Both the position numbers and the translations under genes were made by a program. From contig CACZYB010000005.1 of the NCBI GenBank assembly GCA_902785275.1, positions 2,213 to 66,212 on the forward strand: a DNA stretch of 64,000 bases, in the 5' to 3' direction. The notes beneath the pieces were generated by a model. That model ran no database searches. It saw only the letters and a list, made by a program, of their open reading frames with translations, and was not told where the DNA came from. Source of the DNA: an uncultured Pseudomonadota bacterium (GTDB taxonomy: Bacteria; Pseudomonadota; Alphaproteobacteria; Rs-D84; CACZYB01). This document shows, piece by piece, positions 26,919 to 30,045 of the stretch. Positions within the stretch are counted from its first letter, which is position 1; each line of letters starts with the position of its first letter.

Positions 26919-27380
26919 ATGAAAGATTTAAAAATAGAAGAAATTACGCTTAATACCAGAGTTGCTGCGGTTCAATGCTCTTATTCCGTATTATTTATGG
27001 GTGAAAAACTGACAGCAAAAACAATGAAATATTTTAGAACAAAATCATTTTTATCGGAACAGGATACTGTTGATAACAAACAGATTGAAGTAAATGCAAA
27101 ACTTTTTGCCTATTTGGTAAAGGGGGTTATTAAAAATCAAGAAACATTGGATAAGGAAATTTCAAAGTATCTAAAGGTTGAACTTTCCAAAAATGATAGT
27201 TTGATTGTTTCAATCATTCGTGCCGGAACATTCGAGCTTTTGTTTAGGGATAATACTCCTGCACCAATCGTTATTTCCGAATATACAAAGATAGCAAACA
27301 AATTCTATTCTGAAAAAAAGACTGCACTTGTTAATGCAGTACTTGATAAAATTGCAAAGTCAAAATCAAAACCAGAGTAA
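26919..27380 (+). CDS. nusB: Transcription antitermination factor NusB
   Basis: 153 aa, all-helical, and the residue pattern is consistent with NusB. Confidence 0.6.
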   Translation: MKDLKIEEITLNTRVAAVQCSYSVLFMGEKLTAKTMKYFRTKSFLSEQDTVDNKQIEVNAKLFAYLVKGVIKNQETLDKEISKYLKVELSKNDSLIVSIIRAGTFELLFRDNTPAPIVISEYTKIANKFYSEKKTALVNAVLDKIAKSKSKPE

Positions 27381-27429
27381 ATATCATTACTTTAAAAAAT
27401 TACCCCCTTTTTTTTACAGGGGGTGTTTT

Positions 27430-28809
27430 TTACAAAGCTTTTTCACATTTTCCCGCCATCTCACTATCCTTCTTTGCCTTTGATGCTTGAAGAACAGAAA
27501 GTGCAGTCGAAGTACCACTTGTTCCTATTGTCACACCAGCTAAGATGTTGGATGCAAGATTTAAATTCTTTTCCTTTTTCTTTCCTTCATCACTGTTATC
27601 ATGACGAACATTATCACTATTTGCCATAAATGATGTTACGGTGCCGGCACCCGCAGTTGCTGTACCAATACCTGATACAATAGTGTTTGCAGTTGCAAGT
27701 TTTTTAAGGGATTGAATGTTGCTTTCATCATAACCGGTACATACGGAAAGTATCTCACCAGCCTTAACAACTGAAGCCTTTGTTGGTTCAAACTCATCTG
27801 CCTCCGCCATTGACTTTGCCAATTTCAAATCTTTCAAAGCATTGTTACAGTCAGACATTTTTTCCGCCAACTTTGACGCATTTAAAACTGAACCAATAGA
27901 TGTTCCAGTTGATACCGCAGATGTCACAGTAGCACCAGCCATAAGTCCAGTTCTTACATTACCAAAGGTTTTGGATTTTTTTTCATATAGACCTTGCAAT
28001 GTTTTGCTTTTGAAATTTTCTAATGTTATAGTTTCAAGGTCAGCAATAGTTGCTCTTGTAATGCTATTTAATTTTGTTGCTATTAAAGAATTTCTTCCTG
28101 TATCAAATGAATCTTTATAGTCTTGTAAAACATATTTTAATTCATCGTATTTATCTGAATATCTAACATCGATAAGATAATCAAGTTGTAATATCTCTTC
28201 TGCCTTTTGTGCTAAAACGCTAGTTGAAGTATTATCTTTTTGATTATAATCATCCAAATCTTGTTTTATACTTTCTAATTTCTTTTTCCATTCATCATAT
28301 TTGTTTGCATAATATTCATCAGACAATTCTATTTCTTCTGTTTTTTTATCGTTATTCTCTTTTATTGTACCAGATACCAAAGCATCAGCAGCAACCGCAG
28401 TACCCAAAGCTGATGATACAGTTGTTGCAACTGTCAAACCAAAGATAGTATCAATATTTGATTTAATACCAGAACAATAGTTTTGAACTGTACTTATTTT
28501 TGCATCTAAATCATTTTTTAATGTTTTACTAACACTTCTATATTCAGAAATTACTGAAGGTGTATCATTAATTGTTGGTCTAGTAGCATCATCAACAGTA
28601 ATATTAACAGTAGTTACTTCTGTATTATTATTTGCTTCTTTTATTTCAGTAGCAATATTGTTGTTAATATTATTAGCTTCAGTTTTTTTTACCGGTTTTG
28701 CAGACACCGCATATCTTTTGGTTTTATTTCTGTGATTACCTGCATTTACAACACAAATATTGCTTAATGTTAAAATTAAACTTAGTGTTAAAATAGAAAC
28801 ATTTCTCAT
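27430..28809 (-). CDS. Secreted or surface protein, A/T/G-rich with internal repeats (putative surface antigen)
   Basis: Signal peptide (ILTLSLILTLSNICVVNA) and repeated GTAVAADALVSGT / GTATAGAGTVTS / GVTIGTSGTSTA-like blocks. Confidence 0.5.
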   Translation of the reverse strand: MRNVSILTLSLILTLSNICVVNAGNHRNKTKRYAVSAKPVKKTEANNINNNIATEIKEANNNTEVTTVNITVDDATRPTINDTPSVISEYRSVSKTLKNDLDAKISTVQNYCSGIKSNIDTIFGLTVATTVSSALGTAVAADALVSGTIKENNDKKTEEIELSDEYYANKYDEWKKKLESIKQDLDDYNQKDNTSTSVLAQKAEEILQLDYLIDVRYSDKYDELKYVLQDYKDSFDTGRNSLIATKLNSITRATIADLETITLENFKSKTLQGLYEKKSKTFGNVRTGLMAGATVTSAVSTGTSIGSVLNASKLAEKMSDCNNALKDLKLAKSMAEADEFEPTKASVVKAGEILSVCTGYDESNIQSLKKLATANTIVSGIGTATAGAGTVTSFMANSDNVRHDNSDEGKKKEKNLNLASNILAGVTIGTSGTSTALSVLQASKAKKDSEMAGKCEKAL

Positions 28810-28835
28810 AAATTTACCTTCCCTTTTTATATATT

Positions 28836-28985
28836 AAAAAACGCCTTCGTAAACGAAAGCGGTTGGGGGCTAGAAAACGTCATAAAGTAATACGCAAGAA
28901 TGACCGTTTGTATATTGCTACACAAACACACCCCAACCTTACAGTTGGGATACGTATTACTTTTCAAAACGAGTTTTCTAGGCTC
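28836..28985 (-). ncRNA. Candidate structured cis-regulatory leader (attenuator/riboswitch-like) upstream of the surface-protein gene
   Basis: It is GC-rich relative to its surroundings. Nested helices: 28870-78 pairs with 28973-81, 28884-94 with 28953-63, and there are hairpins at 28906-11/28923-28 and 28932-37/28944-49. An alternative pairing 28861-68/28931-38 is mutually exclusive with the 28932-49 hairpin. The terminator hairpin at 28842-61 is followed by U6 (minus strand), then the RBS GGGAAGG, and ATG at 28809. Confidence 0.35.
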
Positions 28986-29074
28986 GCATACCCTTTCGGA
29001 TACTAAATTTTGCTAAAAAAATCTAACAAAACCTACGAATATAGTACTATAAAAAAATGATAAAGTCAAATATA

Positions 29075-29102
29075 TAAAAAAACTCCCCATAAAACGGGGA
29101 GT
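29075..29102 (-). terminator. Intrinsic terminator of ppaC (ACTCCCC-ATAAAAC-GGGGAGT, with U-run on the minus strand)
   Basis: Hairpin at 29082-29102 with an A7 run on the plus strand at 29075-81. Confidence 0.6.
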
Positions 29103-29124
29103 AATTTCTTCAAACTTTTTTTTA

Positions 29125-30045
29125 TTAAAGTTTTGTTTCAAGTGGTGGAACAACTTGTTTCTTACGGCTCATCATTCCATCAACCCAAGCACAGTGTTTT
29201 TCATCACACTTAATGCCAAATACATTTTCAATCGCAGGAATATCATCTGATACAACAAGCATTTCAGATCCTTCTTTCATAATATCTGTAATCAAAAGAA
29301 GAAGCGTGTTGTATCCGCCATCTTTGTGAAGTTTTTTCATTTCTTCTAAGATAGCAGGTTTCTTGCTTTCAGCCATTGAACCATCGATAAGTTCTATTTG
29401 ACCTATACCAAATTTTTTACCGTGGATATTGAAATCTTTGAAATCACGGTTGATAAGGTCAAGAGCAGAGTCATTTTCAATTGAAGACTTAACCTTTAAC
29501 ATTTCAAGGCCAAGATCAAGAGGTTTTTCAATACCTGCAATTTTTGCAAGTTCTTCTACTGCTTTTTTATCCCATTCTGTTGTTGTAGGAGATTTGAAAA
29601 GTACAGTATCAGAAAGTACAGCACAAAGCATAGCACCAGCAACTTTTGCAGGGATATTTTTACCTTCTGTTTTGAAAATGTTTGTTATAACAGTTGAACT
29701 TGAACCAACTGGTTGACCATAAAATTCAAGTGGTGTCGCATTTTTAAGACCGCCAAGTTTATGATGATCAGCAACAAAAACAATAGATGCTTTTTCAATA
29801 TCTTCAGGAAGTTGTGTTGGTTCTGTTGTATCAACCAAAGCAACAGTTTTACCTTCAACAGAAGTTATTGTTTCAGGAATATCTAATCCAAATTTTTCAA
29901 TAATGAATTTTGTTTCTGGGTTGATATCTCCTTGTTTGCATGCAATTGCATCAACTCCACGAGCTTTAAAAAGTTCAGCAACAGCAATTGTAGAAATAAT
30001 TGCATCGCTATCAGGGTTTGTATGTCCAAATACATATACAGTCAT
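29125..30045 (-). CDS. ppaC: Manganese-dependent inorganic pyrophosphatase (family II, DHH)
   Basis: VFGHTNPDSDAI, a DHH motif and the DHHA2 C-terminus. Confidence 0.85.
   Translation of the reverse strand: MTVYVFGHTNPDSDAIISTIAVAELFKARGVDAIACKQGDINPETKFIIEKFGLDIPETITSVEGKTVALVDTTEPTQLPEDIEKASIVFVADHHKLGGLKNATPLEFYGQPVGSSSTVITNIFKTEGKNIPAKVAGAMLCAVLSDTVLFKSPTTTEWDKKAVEELAKIAGIEKPLDLGLEMLKVKSSIENDSALDLINRDFKDFNIHGKKFGIGQIELIDGSMAESKKPAILEEMKKLHKDGGYNTLLLLITDIMKEGSEMLVVSDDIPAIENVFGIKCDEKHCAWVDGMMSRKKQVVPPLETKL

What the first reader, a model, noticed from the sequence alone, without database searches (positions are those of the whole stretch)
28836..28985. GC-rich structured leader with mutually exclusive helices, then a terminator hairpin and U-tract just upstream of the surface-protein start codon
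The 315-bp spacer between ppaC and the surface-protein gene holds the ppaC terminator and then a second, separate element. Helix 28870-78 pairs with 28973-81. It encloses helix 28884-94 pairing with 28953-63, which encloses two hairpins (28906-11/28923-28 and 28932-37/28944-49). Segment 28861-68 (GGTTGGGG) can instead pair with 28931-38 (CCCCAACC), which destroys the second hairpin and gives a pseudoknot or alternative fold. On the minus-strand RNA this domain is followed directly by an 8-bp hairpin (28842-61, with a G-U pair that only forms on the minus strand). Then come U6, the RBS GGGAAGG and the AUG. That is the textbook layout of a transcription attenuator or riboswitch expression platform. 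I cannot match it to a known riboswitch class by eye. It could also be an RPE-like palindromic insertion, which Rickettsia-type genomes harbour, exapted as a leader.
Basis: seen in the sequence. Interest (0 to 1): 0.7.

Follow-up and report, generated by a model that had tools for sequence, protein, structure and literature searches.

The report
Conserved bistable attenuator leader RNA
A folded RNA leader of about 200 nt, with its own promoter and a built-in terminator, sits in front of a secreted-protein gene; it is kept with compensating base changes in related uncultured rumen and gut Alphaproteobacteria, matches no known RNA family, and most likely works as an on/off switch whose signal is unknown.

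Summary
The minus-strand RNA folds far better than shuffled sequence (z = -6.25). The element is larger than reported. It runs from a sigma-70-like promoter (29041-29069) through two more 5' hairpins (P0, P1) to the terminator, U-tract and RBS.

I found 9 distinct homologues in 4 clades (49-90% identity), all in uncultured Alphaproteobacteria from rumen or gut. Each lies directly upstream of a start codon and in the same orientation. The upstream neighbours differ, and so do the downstream genes, which mostly encode secreted or envelope proteins.

The core helices covary: 91.6% of cells paired against 35-47% with slid partners, and 11-18 pairs with compensatory changes. No Rfam family matches.

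The P1 hairpin region can pair with the terminator's 5' arm and loop (helix B). The state "core + B" and the state "core + P1 + terminator" differ by no more than 5.5 kcal/mol. In one clade that has no terminator, the same 3' strand instead hides the Shine-Dalgarno sequence.

Verdict: a new family of cis-regulatory, riboswitch-like attenuator leaders. The effector is unknown. Termination and switching are inferred, not shown.

The parts
29041..29069 (-). Sigma-70-like promoter: -35 TTGACT (29064-29069), 17-nt spacer, -10 TACTAT (29041-29046). The transcription start is inferred at about 29034-29036.
   Evidence: Equivalent promoters lie 6-10 nt before P0 in L009, L035 and L050.
29004..29035 (-). 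P0: 14-bp hairpin at the 5' end of the transcript, with 4 G-U pairs. It ends 1 nt before P1.
   Evidence: A hairpin is present at this position, with a different sequence, in all 9 members.
28988..29003 (-). P1: GUAUCC-GAAA-GGGUAU hairpin with a GNRA loop. Its sequence is also the 5' strand of helix B.
   Evidence: 100% of cells paired in 8 sequences, with one-sided changes only. L050 has GUAUCA/UGAUAC, a double change.
28969..28987 (-). P2: short hairpin GCGAG...CUCGU (5 bp). Its loop holds the 5' strand of PKb. It is either a transient placeholder or part of a pseudoknot.
   Evidence: 96% paired, with 3 of 4 pairs changed on both sides. It forms first and is then replaced by PKb in growing-chain folds. 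My window-shuffle test was not significant (p = 0.12).
28973..28981 (-). PKb 5' strand, CUAGAAAAC.
   Evidence: Pairs with 28870-28878. 5-7 of 9 pairs show compensatory changes.
28870..28878 (-). PKb 3' strand, GUUUUCUAG.
28952..28963 (-). P3 5' strand, AAAGUAAUACGU.
   Evidence: Pairs with 28884-28895. 3-6 pairs show compensatory changes.
28884..28895 (-). P3 3' strand, GCGUAUUACUUU.
28932..28949 (-). P4 hairpin, CCCAAC / GUUGGG. Its 3' arm, extended to GGUUGGGG (28931-28938), can instead pair with 28861-28868.
   Evidence: Invariant in the 7 core members. It is CCCCAU/AUGGGG in L011 and L050.
28906..28927 (-). P5 hairpin, 9 bp with a GCAA loop.
   Evidence: The sequence varies but stays paired; 3-5 pairs show compensatory changes.
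28900..28904 (-). P6 5' strand, GUCAU. It pairs with 28879-28883 (AUGAC) and encloses the 3' strand of P3, so P6 and P3 exclude each other.
   Evidence: 83% paired, with 3 of 5 pairs changed on both sides. It is AAGUC/GACUU in L011 and L050. Never seen in MFE folds. Shuffle test p = 0.02.
28879..28883 (-). P6 3' strand, AUGAC.
28861..28868 (-). C-rich segment CCCCAACC. It pairs alternatively with the P4 3' arm (P4alt). Its last three bases, ACC, also belong to helix B.
   Evidence: 95% paired: 8 pairs invariant, 1 changed on one side, 1 changed on both sides.
28849..28863 (-). 3' strand of helix B (ACC-G-CUUUCG-UU-UAC). It pairs with 28990-29003 and overlaps the terminator 5' arm and loop, so it acts as the antiterminator.
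   Evidence: RNAalifold. 13 pairs, 97.8% paired; the window's GAGA->GAAA change is matched by C->U. 11 contiguous pairs of different sequence in L011. Energies.
28842..28861 (-). Intrinsic-terminator hairpin, CGCUUUCG-UUUA-CGAAGGCG (-9.7 kcal/mol).
   Evidence: Equivalent terminators occur in the 6 other core members.
28836..28841 (-). U6 tract of the terminator.
28807..28823 (-). RBS GGGAAGG (28817-28823) and ATG (28807-28809) of the 459-aa secreted protein. The ATG lies 32 nt after the terminator stem.

Best explanation
This is a member of a previously undescribed family of cis-acting 5' leader RNAs found in uncultured, low-GC rumen and gut Alphaproteobacteria.

**Folding path.** Transcription starts at the leader's own promoter. 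The RNA first forms the hairpins P0, P1 and P2. It then forms a stable core: P3 closes a three-way junction with P4 and P5, and the long-range helix PKb displaces P2.

**The decision.** This is taken when the next segment emerges. That segment can follow one of two routes:
- ON: it pairs backwards with the P1 region to form the 12-13-bp helix B. This opens P1, and the leader becomes one long rod. The terminator cannot form, and RNA polymerase reads into the gene.
- OFF: it pairs forwards with the terminator's 3' arm. P1 re-forms, and transcription stops at the U-tract 32 nt before the ATG. The product is a leader RNA of about 200 nt.

**A second platform.** In one clade (L011, L050, L008) the terminator is replaced by a helix that hides the Shine-Dalgarno sequence. 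That helix uses the same 3' strand, so the same B-versus-P1 choice controls translation there.

**The effector.** I think the balance is most likely tipped by an effector that binds the folded core or helix B, making this an ON-type, riboswitch-like switch. My subjective weights are about 0.3 for a small molecule or second messenger, about 0.25 for an RNA-binding protein acting on the invariant P0-P1 GNRA hairpin, and the remainder for a purely kinetic or thermal switch.

**Shown:** sequence and structure conservation, the mutually exclusive complementarities, and the near-equal predicted energies.
**Inferred:** termination, switching and ON/OFF polarity.
**Unknown:** the signal.
For: **Family and context**
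- Nine distinct members in 4 clades share 49-90% identity. A tenth copy, L008, is identical to L050.
- All are in the sense orientation. In the 7 core members the terminator stem ends 24-32 nt before the start codon.
- Upstream neighbours differ: ppaC, tRNA genes, pyrG.
- Downstream genes differ: the surface-protein family, a 51-aa lipoprotein, small signal-peptide or TM proteins, and one 221-aa protein.
- Promoter-like sites lie at the equivalent place.

**Core structure**
- On a structure-blind MAFFT alignment, 91.6% of cells pair against 35-47% with slid partners. Eleven pairs change on both sides. The covariation score is 0.295 against 0.149 (0 of 500 shuffles reach it).
- On the covariance-model alignment with L011 added, 94.6% pair and 18 pairs change on both sides.
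- All listed helices are 100% canonical in every member.

**Strand**
- Each member has 5-12 G-U pairs.
- The model scores 145-169 bits on the sense strand and 12-29 bits on the antisense strand.
- MFE is -77 on the minus strand against -58 on the plus strand.

**Switch**
- Helix B is 97.8% paired over 13 pairs, with one G-C to A-U double change located in the window itself.
- L011 rebuilds helix B with a different sequence (11 bp).
- The states "core + B" and "core + P1 + terminator or SD helix" differ by 0-5.7 kcal/mol across the nine members; the core-member gap is at most 5.5.
- In growing-chain folds, B forms as soon as its 3' strand appears. It is then kept or lost once the terminator's 3' arm is added.
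- Terminators are -7 to -11 kcal/mol, with 6-7 U in the next 9 nt.
- The L011/L050 clade has no terminator and has an SD-sequestering helix instead.
Against: - No experiment or transcript data exist, so termination and read-through are purely predicted.
- There are only 9 distinct sequences in 4 clades, so statistical power is limited.
- P1, P4, P4alt and most of helix B are nearly invariant. Their support comes from very few changes.
- Unpaired junction nucleotides are poorly conserved, and one clade inserts an extra hairpin in the junction. This is unlike most metabolite-binding pockets and weakens the small-molecule reading.
- The short alternative helices are weakly supported by my own window-shuffle test: P2 p = 0.12, P6 p = 0.02, helix B p = 0.047. 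P6 and P4alt never appear in MFE paths.
- The regulated genes have no known function, so no ligand can be guessed from context.
- Most homologues of the surface-protein gene lack the leader.
Confidence: 0.7

Rival explanations
1. A constitutive structured 5' UTR with no switch. The 5'-terminal hairpin P0 and the long rod protect a highly expressed surface-protein mRNA from RNases or guide its processing. The 'terminator' only damps expression or insulates the gene from ppaC.
For: - P0 sits at the very 5' end in all members.
- The rod fold is the MFE in 4 of the members tested.
- There is no conserved ligand-pocket-like junction.
- The target genes encode secreted or surface proteins.
Against: - A stabiliser does not need a conserved intrinsic terminator 24-32 nt before the ATG.
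- It does not need a 5' hairpin whose sequence is complementary to that terminator's 5' arm and loop.
- It does not explain the replacement of the terminator by an SD-sequestering helix that uses the same strand in another clade.
- The near-equal energies of the two states look selected.
Confidence: 0.12
2. An independent small RNA gene of about 200 nt, with its own promoter and terminator, that acts in trans. Its C-rich single strand could act on G-rich ribosome-binding sites. Under this reading it only happens to lie upstream of genes.
For: - It has its own promoter and terminator.
- A C-rich segment, CCCCAACC or CUCUCC, lies between the core and the terminator. It is complementary to SD-like sequences in 4 of 9 members.
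Against: - All 9 members, plus L008, are in the same orientation.
- In the 7 core members the terminator stem lies 24-32 nt from the start codon, and I saw no separate promoter for the downstream gene in between.
- The L011/L050 clade has no terminator at all and runs straight into the RBS.
- A dual role, with the terminated leader acting in trans, is not excluded.
Confidence: 0.08
3. A mobile or dispersed palindromic repeat (RPE- or MITE-like) that was inserted upstream of genes. Its hairpins would be a by-product of inverted repeats in DNA.
For: - The fold is largely one long imperfect palindrome.
- Copies that are 82-90% identical, from about the -10 box to the ATG, precede unrelated genes. 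The promoter-leader-RBS cassette has therefore been duplicated or moved.
- Several copies lie next to tRNA genes.
Against: - There is one copy in the 64-kb window, and none in plasmid or phage collections.
- I noticed no terminal inverted repeats or target-site duplications, though I ran no dedicated search for them.
- The element is never inside an ORF and is always in the sense orientation relative to a start codon.
- Compensatory changes keep RNA pairs, and the 5-12 G-U pairs per member would be A-C mismatches on the other strand or in DNA cruciforms.
- Promoter, terminator and RBS are integral, conserved parts.
Confidence: 0.05
4. A DNA-level invertible promoter (inverton) giving phase variation of a surface protein, with the inverted repeats as recombinase sites.
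For: - The target is a surface-protein gene.
- Serine-recombinase genes lie beside leader-less paralogous operons in L039 and L049.
Against: - No recombinase gene lies near the window element.
- The promoter lies outside the repeats, not between them.
- The repeats are nested and multiple, with G-U-type asymmetry.
- All copies were found in a single orientation.
Confidence: 0.02

Closest known systems
Transcriptional ON-riboswitch expression platforms, such as the adenine (pbuE/ydhL) riboswitch (general knowledge)
   Same: - A folded multi-helix domain is closed by a helix whose 3' strand doubles as the 5' arm of an intrinsic terminator.
- Forming the closing helix prevents termination.
- Both transcriptional and SD-sequestering platforms are attached to one sensor.
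- The decision is co-transcriptional and kinetic.
   Different: - No Rfam aptamer matches at E <= 10 in the region or E <= 0.1 in 8 other members.
- The closing helix competes with a conserved local GNRA hairpin (P1) on its 5' side.
- Junction nucleotides are poorly conserved.
- The ligand is unknown and may not exist.
c-di-GMP-I/II riboswitches that control adhesins, pili and flagella in Clostridioides difficile (general knowledge)
   Same: - Leaders with terminators in front of several unrelated surface or secreted-protein genes in one organism.
- A GNRA tetraloop hairpin is present.
   Different: No hit to either Rfam model. The architecture is different, and no tetraloop-receptor or c-di-GMP pocket motif was identified.
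Protein-dependent attenuators (PyrR binding site RF00515, T-box, trp/TRAP, Bgl/Sac RAT elements)
   Same: - Terminator and antiterminator alternatives decided by a trans factor.
- An invariant hairpin that could be a protein site.
- PyrR was the best, though sub-threshold, Rfam alignment over the region.
   Different: - The PyrR hit scores 23.2 bits against a gathering score of 54, E = 0.59.
- No T-box hit.
- The downstream genes are not pyrimidine, amino-acid or sugar genes.
Rickettsia palindromic elements (RPE) and bacterial MITEs
   Same: - A palindromic element of 100-200 bp in an AT-rich alphaproteobacterial genome.
- Similar copies at several loci.
   Different: - Single copy in 64 kb.
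- Fixed sense orientation just before start codons.
- Carries a promoter, terminator and RBS.
- RNA-type covariation and G-U pairs.

Membership tests
Any Rfam 15 family (all known riboswitch, leader and sRNA classes) | Covariance-model score at or above the family's gathering threshold. | tested here: not met
   - Whole window at gathering thresholds: only two tRNAs.
- Region 28700-29200 at E <= 10: nothing near threshold. The best hit over the element is PyrR at 23.2 bits against 54.
- Eight homologous loci at E <= 0.1: only tRNAs and tRNA-overlapping noise.
Intrinsic-terminator attenuator / riboswitch-type expression platform (mechanistic class) | A promoter-proximal leader ending in a G+C-rich hairpin plus U-tract, upstream of the RBS and ORF. 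| tested here: met
   - Window: 8-bp hairpin 28842-61 plus U6, 32 nt before the ATG.
- The same arrangement occurs in 6 other members.
Intrinsic-terminator attenuator / riboswitch-type expression platform (mechanistic class) | A conserved alternative pairing that sequesters one arm of the terminator (antiterminator). | tested here: met
   - Helix B: 13 pairs, 97.8% paired in 7 sequences, one double change.
- Rebuilt with a different sequence in L011.
- Energies within 5.7 kcal/mol of the terminator or SD-helix state.
Intrinsic-terminator attenuator / riboswitch-type expression platform (mechanistic class) | Actual premature termination, and read-through that depends on a signal. | not testable with these tools
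   Needs RNA-seq or Term-seq, or in vitro transcription.
Metabolite-binding riboswitch (any new class) | A conserved aptamer with invariant unpaired nucleotides forming a pocket, and a gene context that points to a ligand. | tested here: inconclusive
   - The helices covary.
- The junctions vary, and an extra hairpin is inserted in one clade.
- The downstream genes have no Pfam or NCBIfam assignment.
T-box leader | Stem I with a specifier loop, and the conserved T-box antiterminator sequence. | tested here: not met
   - No RF00230 hit at E <= 10.
- The downstream genes are not aminoacyl-tRNA or amino-acid genes.
Rickettsia palindromic element / MITE | Many dispersed copies per genome in either orientation, often inside ORFs, with no dependence on neighbouring genes. 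| tested here: not met
   - One copy in the 64-kb window.
- All 9 members plus L008 are in the sense orientation, directly before a start codon.
- Whole-genome copy number could not be counted.
Invertible promoter (inverton) | Inverted repeats flanking a promoter, with a site-specific recombinase nearby and both orientations present in populations. | tested here: not met
   - The promoter lies outside the repeats.
- The neighbours are ppaC, map, nusB, sspB and a Na/Ca exchanger.
- Read-level orientation could not be tested.

The most novel reading that the evidence does not exclude
This is a new riboswitch class. A folded core (a three-way junction plus a long-range or pseudoknot helix) would bind an as-yet-unknown small molecule or second messenger and stabilise closing helix B. 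That would switch on a regulon of secreted and surface proteins in uncultured rumen and gut Alphaproteobacteria, through either a transcriptional or a translational platform.
Probability: 0.3. Interest if true: 0.8.

Novelty: new variant of a known kind. Interest (0 to 1): 0.62.

Why it matters
The hosts are uncultured, small-genome Alphaproteobacteria that are common in rumen and gut metagenomes. Almost nothing is known about how they regulate genes.

This leader appears to define a regulon of lineage-specific secreted and envelope proteins, including a large Pfam-less family of all-alpha surface proteins. These are the molecules most likely to meet the host or phages.

A new bistable attenuator with interchangeable transcriptional and translational platforms is a tractable in vitro system of about 200 nt. 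It could be used to look for a new ligand or RNA-binding regulator. It could also serve as a marker for finding co-regulated genes in MAGs.

If it turns out to be signal-less, it is still a clear natural example of a balanced two-state co-transcriptional fold.

Tried and rejected
1. **Rfam:** scanned the window, the region and 8 homologous loci. Nothing found.
2. **Second copy in the window:** blastn and the covariance model found none. The 18.8-bit hit at 27314-27465 is only a terminator-like match.
3. **Viral contigs:** scanned with the P1 18-mer. All 28 hits are unrelated: a phage coding region and the variable arms of class-II tRNAs.
4. **Plasmid and phage collections (blastn):** no match.
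5. **Metagenome pattern scan:** 5 hits. L037 was rejected as a chance match in GC-rich coding DNA.
6. **Twelve look-ups of surface-protein homologues:** most loci have no leader (L039-L049, L079, L080). The leader is therefore not tied to this gene family.
7. **Covariance-model search with filters off:** lost L011 and picked up antisense hits. That alignment (A5) was discarded.
8. **Window-shuffle test for the short alternative helices:** weak, so I do not claim P2 or P6 as proven.
9. **Anti-SD pairing of the C-rich segment:** significant in only 4 of 9 members and not in the window, so it is not a general feature.
10. **Leader peptide:** only a 3-codon AUG-CGA-GCC-UAG with no SD, and not conserved. 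Rejected by eye.
11. **Other resemblances rejected.** These were checked by eye against recalled consensus sequences, not by a tool:
   - boxA-like GCUCUUU in the terminator arm: not conserved (CACUCUU, GCUUUCG).
   - Sarcin-ricin-loop-like CGAGAGG in P1: broken in L050 and in the window.
12. **Identity of the surface protein:** no Pfam or NCBIfam match. A weak YaxA profile hit (E = 0.0036) was not supported by Foldseek on an AF2 model with pLDDT 67.
13. **Literature searches** for a described motif in these organisms: nothing relevant.
Full report
**1. The observation**

The spacer between ppaC (29125-30045, minus strand) and a 459-aa secreted protein (27430-28809, minus strand) is 315 bp.

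| Coordinates | Pairs | My name |
|---|---|---|
| 28870-78 / 28973-81 | 9 | PKb |
| 28884-95 / 28952-63 | 12 | P3 |
| 28932-37 / 28944-49 | 6 | P4 |
| 28906-14 / 28919-27 | 9, GCAA loop | P5 |
| 28861-68 / 28931-38 | 8 (alternative pairing) | P4alt |
| 28842-61 | 8, then U6 | terminator |

The RBS GGGAAGG and the ATG follow the terminator.

The minus-strand RNA folds at -77.2 kcal/mol against -50.8 +/- 4.2 for shuffles (z = -6.25, 0 of 200). The plus strand reaches only -57.6. The ppaC terminator at 29082-29102 is a separate element.

A promoter-like site (TTGACT-17-TACTAT, 29069-29041) is followed by two further hairpins:
- P0, a 14-bp hairpin at the 5' end (29004-29035);
- P1, a GNRA hairpin GUAUCC-GAAA-GGGUAU (28988-29003).

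**2. What organism, and is the element repeated?**

The window matches a metagenome scaffold of 84 kb. Homologues of the downstream protein that carry a name are labelled "Alphaproteobacteria bacterium" or simply "bacterium". Several come from water deer, water buffalo and human-gut samples. GC content is about 32%, against 41% in the element.

There is no second copy in the 64-kb window. A weak model hit at 27314-27465 is only a terminator-like match. No Rfam 15 family matches the window, the region at E <= 10, or eight homologous loci at E <= 0.1. The best alignment over the element is PyrR at 23 bits, against a threshold of 54.

**3. Homologues**

I fetched 32 genome loci that encode relatives of the surface protein. 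I then ran one metagenome pattern scan and twelve contig look-ups. Together these gave:
- window, L034, L038 (82-85% identical to one another);
- L035, L036 (90%);
- L009, L005 (87%);
- L011, L050 (82%), with L008 identical to L050;
- a dead 5' fragment in L033.

Identity between clades is 49-74%.

A covariance model built from seven members scores them at 145-169 bits. It scores L011 at 30.7 bits and the antisense strands at only 12-29 bits.

In every case the element lies on the sense strand directly before a start codon. In the seven core members the terminator stem ends 24-32 nt upstream of the ATG. A sigma-70-like promoter ends 6-10 nt before P0.

The upstream neighbours differ: ppaC, tRNA genes, pyrG. 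The downstream genes also differ:
- the surface-protein family (window, L011, L050);
- a 364-406-aa secreted protein followed by a surface-protein paralogue (L005, L009);
- a 51-aa lipoprotein (L035);
- a 142-aa TM protein (L036);
- a 126-aa signal-peptide protein (L038);
- a 221-aa protein with no signal peptide evident by eye (L034).

None of these has a Pfam or NCBIfam assignment.

Most loci of the surface-protein family have no leader. The element therefore travels with whatever gene it precedes, which is how a cis-regulatory leader behaves.

**4. Structure support**

All listed helices are fully canonical in all nine members.

- *Structure-blind MAFFT alignment, 7 sequences.* The core (P1, PKb, P3, P4, P5) is 91.6% paired, against 35-47% when partners are slid by 1-3 columns. 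Eleven pairs change on both sides (8 of 500 shuffles reach this). The covariation score is 0.295 against 0.149 (0 of 500).
- *Model-guided alignment with L011 added.* 94.6% paired, and 18 pairs change on both sides: PKb 7 of 9, P3 6 of 10, P5 5 of 9.

P1 and P4 are nearly invariant within the seven core members. They are rebuilt in the divergent clade as GUAUUC/GGAUAC, GUAUCA/UGAUAC and CCCCAU/AUGGGG. Each member has 5-12 G-U pairs, which would be mismatches on the other strand or in DNA.

**5. The switch**

RNAalifold first showed that the P1 region can pair with the terminator's 5' arm and loop. In most members the pairing is GUAUC-C-GAGAG-GGU with ACC-N-CUCUU-N-GAUAC. I call this helix B.

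- It has 13 pairs and is 97.8% paired in seven sequences.
- The window's loop change GAGA->GAAA is matched by C->U in the partner strand.
- L011 has 11 contiguous pairs of different sequence, UAUUCGAGAGG/CUUUUUGAAUA.
- This explains why the terminator loop (UGAUAC) is conserved even where the terminator's 3' arm differs.

Constrained folding gives "core + B" and "core + P1 + terminator" within 0-5.5 kcal/mol in all seven core members. The MFE is the B state in L034, L038 and L036. It is the terminator state in the window, L035, L009 and L005.

Folding of growing chains gave the same order in five representatives:
1. P0, P1 and P2 form.
2. P4, P5 and P3 form.
3. PKb replaces P2.
4. B replaces P1 as soon as its 3' strand exists.
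5. B is kept or lost once the terminator's 3' arm is added.

Terminators are -7 to -11 kcal/mol, with 6-7 U in the next 9 nt.

In L011, L050 and L008 there is no terminator. There, the helix-B 3' strand (CCUUUUU...) pairs with the Shine-Dalgarno region when P1 is formed and releases it when B is formed. The two states differ by about 5 kcal/mol in either direction. One sensor domain attached to two kinds of expression platform, with the same polarity (B = ON), is the strongest argument that this is a regulatory switch.

**6. Less certain parts**

- **P2** (GCGAG/CUCGU; AGGAG/CUCCU in L036; GGGCU/AGCUC in L011) holds the PKb 5' strand in its loop.
- **P6** (GUCAU/AUGAC; GCUAU/AUAGC; GCCG/CGGU; AAGUC/GACUU) encloses the 3' strand of P3.
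- Both show double changes. Both are short, and my window-shuffle test gives only p = 0.12 and p = 0.02.
- P6 cannot coexist with P3, because no linker lies between the P3 3' strand and the P6 3' strand.
- P2 could be a transient placeholder, or form a tight H-type pseudoknot with part of PKb.
It is mostly invariant, with one double change (p = 0.0015). It never appears in nested MFE paths.
- The C-rich strand is complementary to the SD region in only four members, and not in the window.
- Junction nucleotides are poorly conserved, and the divergent clade inserts an extra hairpin between P3 and P4. This argues against a classical metabolite pocket but does not exclude one.

**7. Interpretation**

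The best explanation is a new family of cis-acting attenuator leaders. Their output is set by competition between helix B (read-through, or free SD) and P1 plus the terminator (or the SD-sequestering helix). The trigger is unknown.

I rank the triggers as follows: an effector that stabilises the folded core or helix B (small molecule about 0.3, protein about 0.25) ahead of a purely kinetic or thermal switch.

The rivals are each less consistent with the fixed position and orientation, the RNA-specific covariation and the dual platforms:
- a constitutive stabilising UTR;
- an independent sRNA;
- an RPE- or MITE-like repeat;
- an inverton.

One point remains in favour of mobility. Copies are 82-90% identical from about the -10 box to the ATG in front of unrelated genes. 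The promoter-leader-RBS cassette has therefore been copied between loci.

**8. Comparison with known systems, and novelty**

Functionally the leader resembles ON-type transcriptional riboswitch platforms, and multi-gene second-messenger riboswitch regulons for surface proteins. By membership it belongs to no Rfam family.

Searches of plasmid, phage and viral collections gave nothing related. Three literature searches also gave nothing.

I class it as a new variant of a known kind. Termination, switching and the signal all need experiments.

Noticed in passing
L009 1158-1400; L005 1391-1463; L034 7894-7966 (-); L046 ~1960-2035: tRNA genes lie directly upstream of the leader or the surface-protein operon, on the same strand, at four loci. 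In L009 the tRNA 3' end plus about 40 nt is repeated about 120 bp downstream. This att-like direct repeat suggests island integration next to the tRNA.
   Followed up: partly
L039 39-638; L049 852-1472: Serine-recombinase (PF00239 Resolvase) genes sit immediately upstream of surface-protein operons that have no leader. This suggests a different control of these paralogues, by DNA inversion or phase variation.
   Followed up: no
window 27430-28809 (-), and homologues P0001-P0120: The 'surface protein' belongs to a large family with no Pfam match, apparently restricted to these MAGs. It has a signal peptide, conserved Cys residues and Gly/Thr/Ser-rich segments. The AF2 model is all long alpha-helices (pLDDT 67). 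A weak PDB profile hit to the pore-forming toxin YaxA (E = 0.0036) is not supported by Foldseek. The gene is often the second in a two-gene operon.
   Followed up: partly
L060, L072, L073, L074 (IMG/VR contigs): The P1 18-mer AGUAUCCGAAAGGGUGUG is identical to the variable arm of class-II tRNA genes on phage contigs. Other hits lie in a conserved phage coding region. I judged these coincidental.
   Followed up: yes
L033 2450-2540: A dead 5' fragment of the leader (P0, P1, P2 and the PKb 5' strand only), with no terminator and no downstream gene on that strand. It is in the same MAG (RGIG8969) that carries an intact divergent leader in L008 2263-2537.
   Followed up: partly
L035 634-2871: Here the leader precedes a 51-aa lipoprotein ORF, which is followed by genes that look like a DNA methyltransferase or restriction-modification system.
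   Followed up: no
window 29082-29102: The ppaC terminator hairpin scores as terminator-like on both strands (bidirectional). It separates ppaC from the leader promoter, which starts only 13 bp downstream.
   Followed up: yes
window 27314-27465 (-): A weak covariance-model hit (18.8 bits) between the surface-protein gene and the convergent nusB gene. The alignment shows only a CCCCC...GGGGG terminator-like hairpin and a T-run. It is not a family member.
   Followed up: yes
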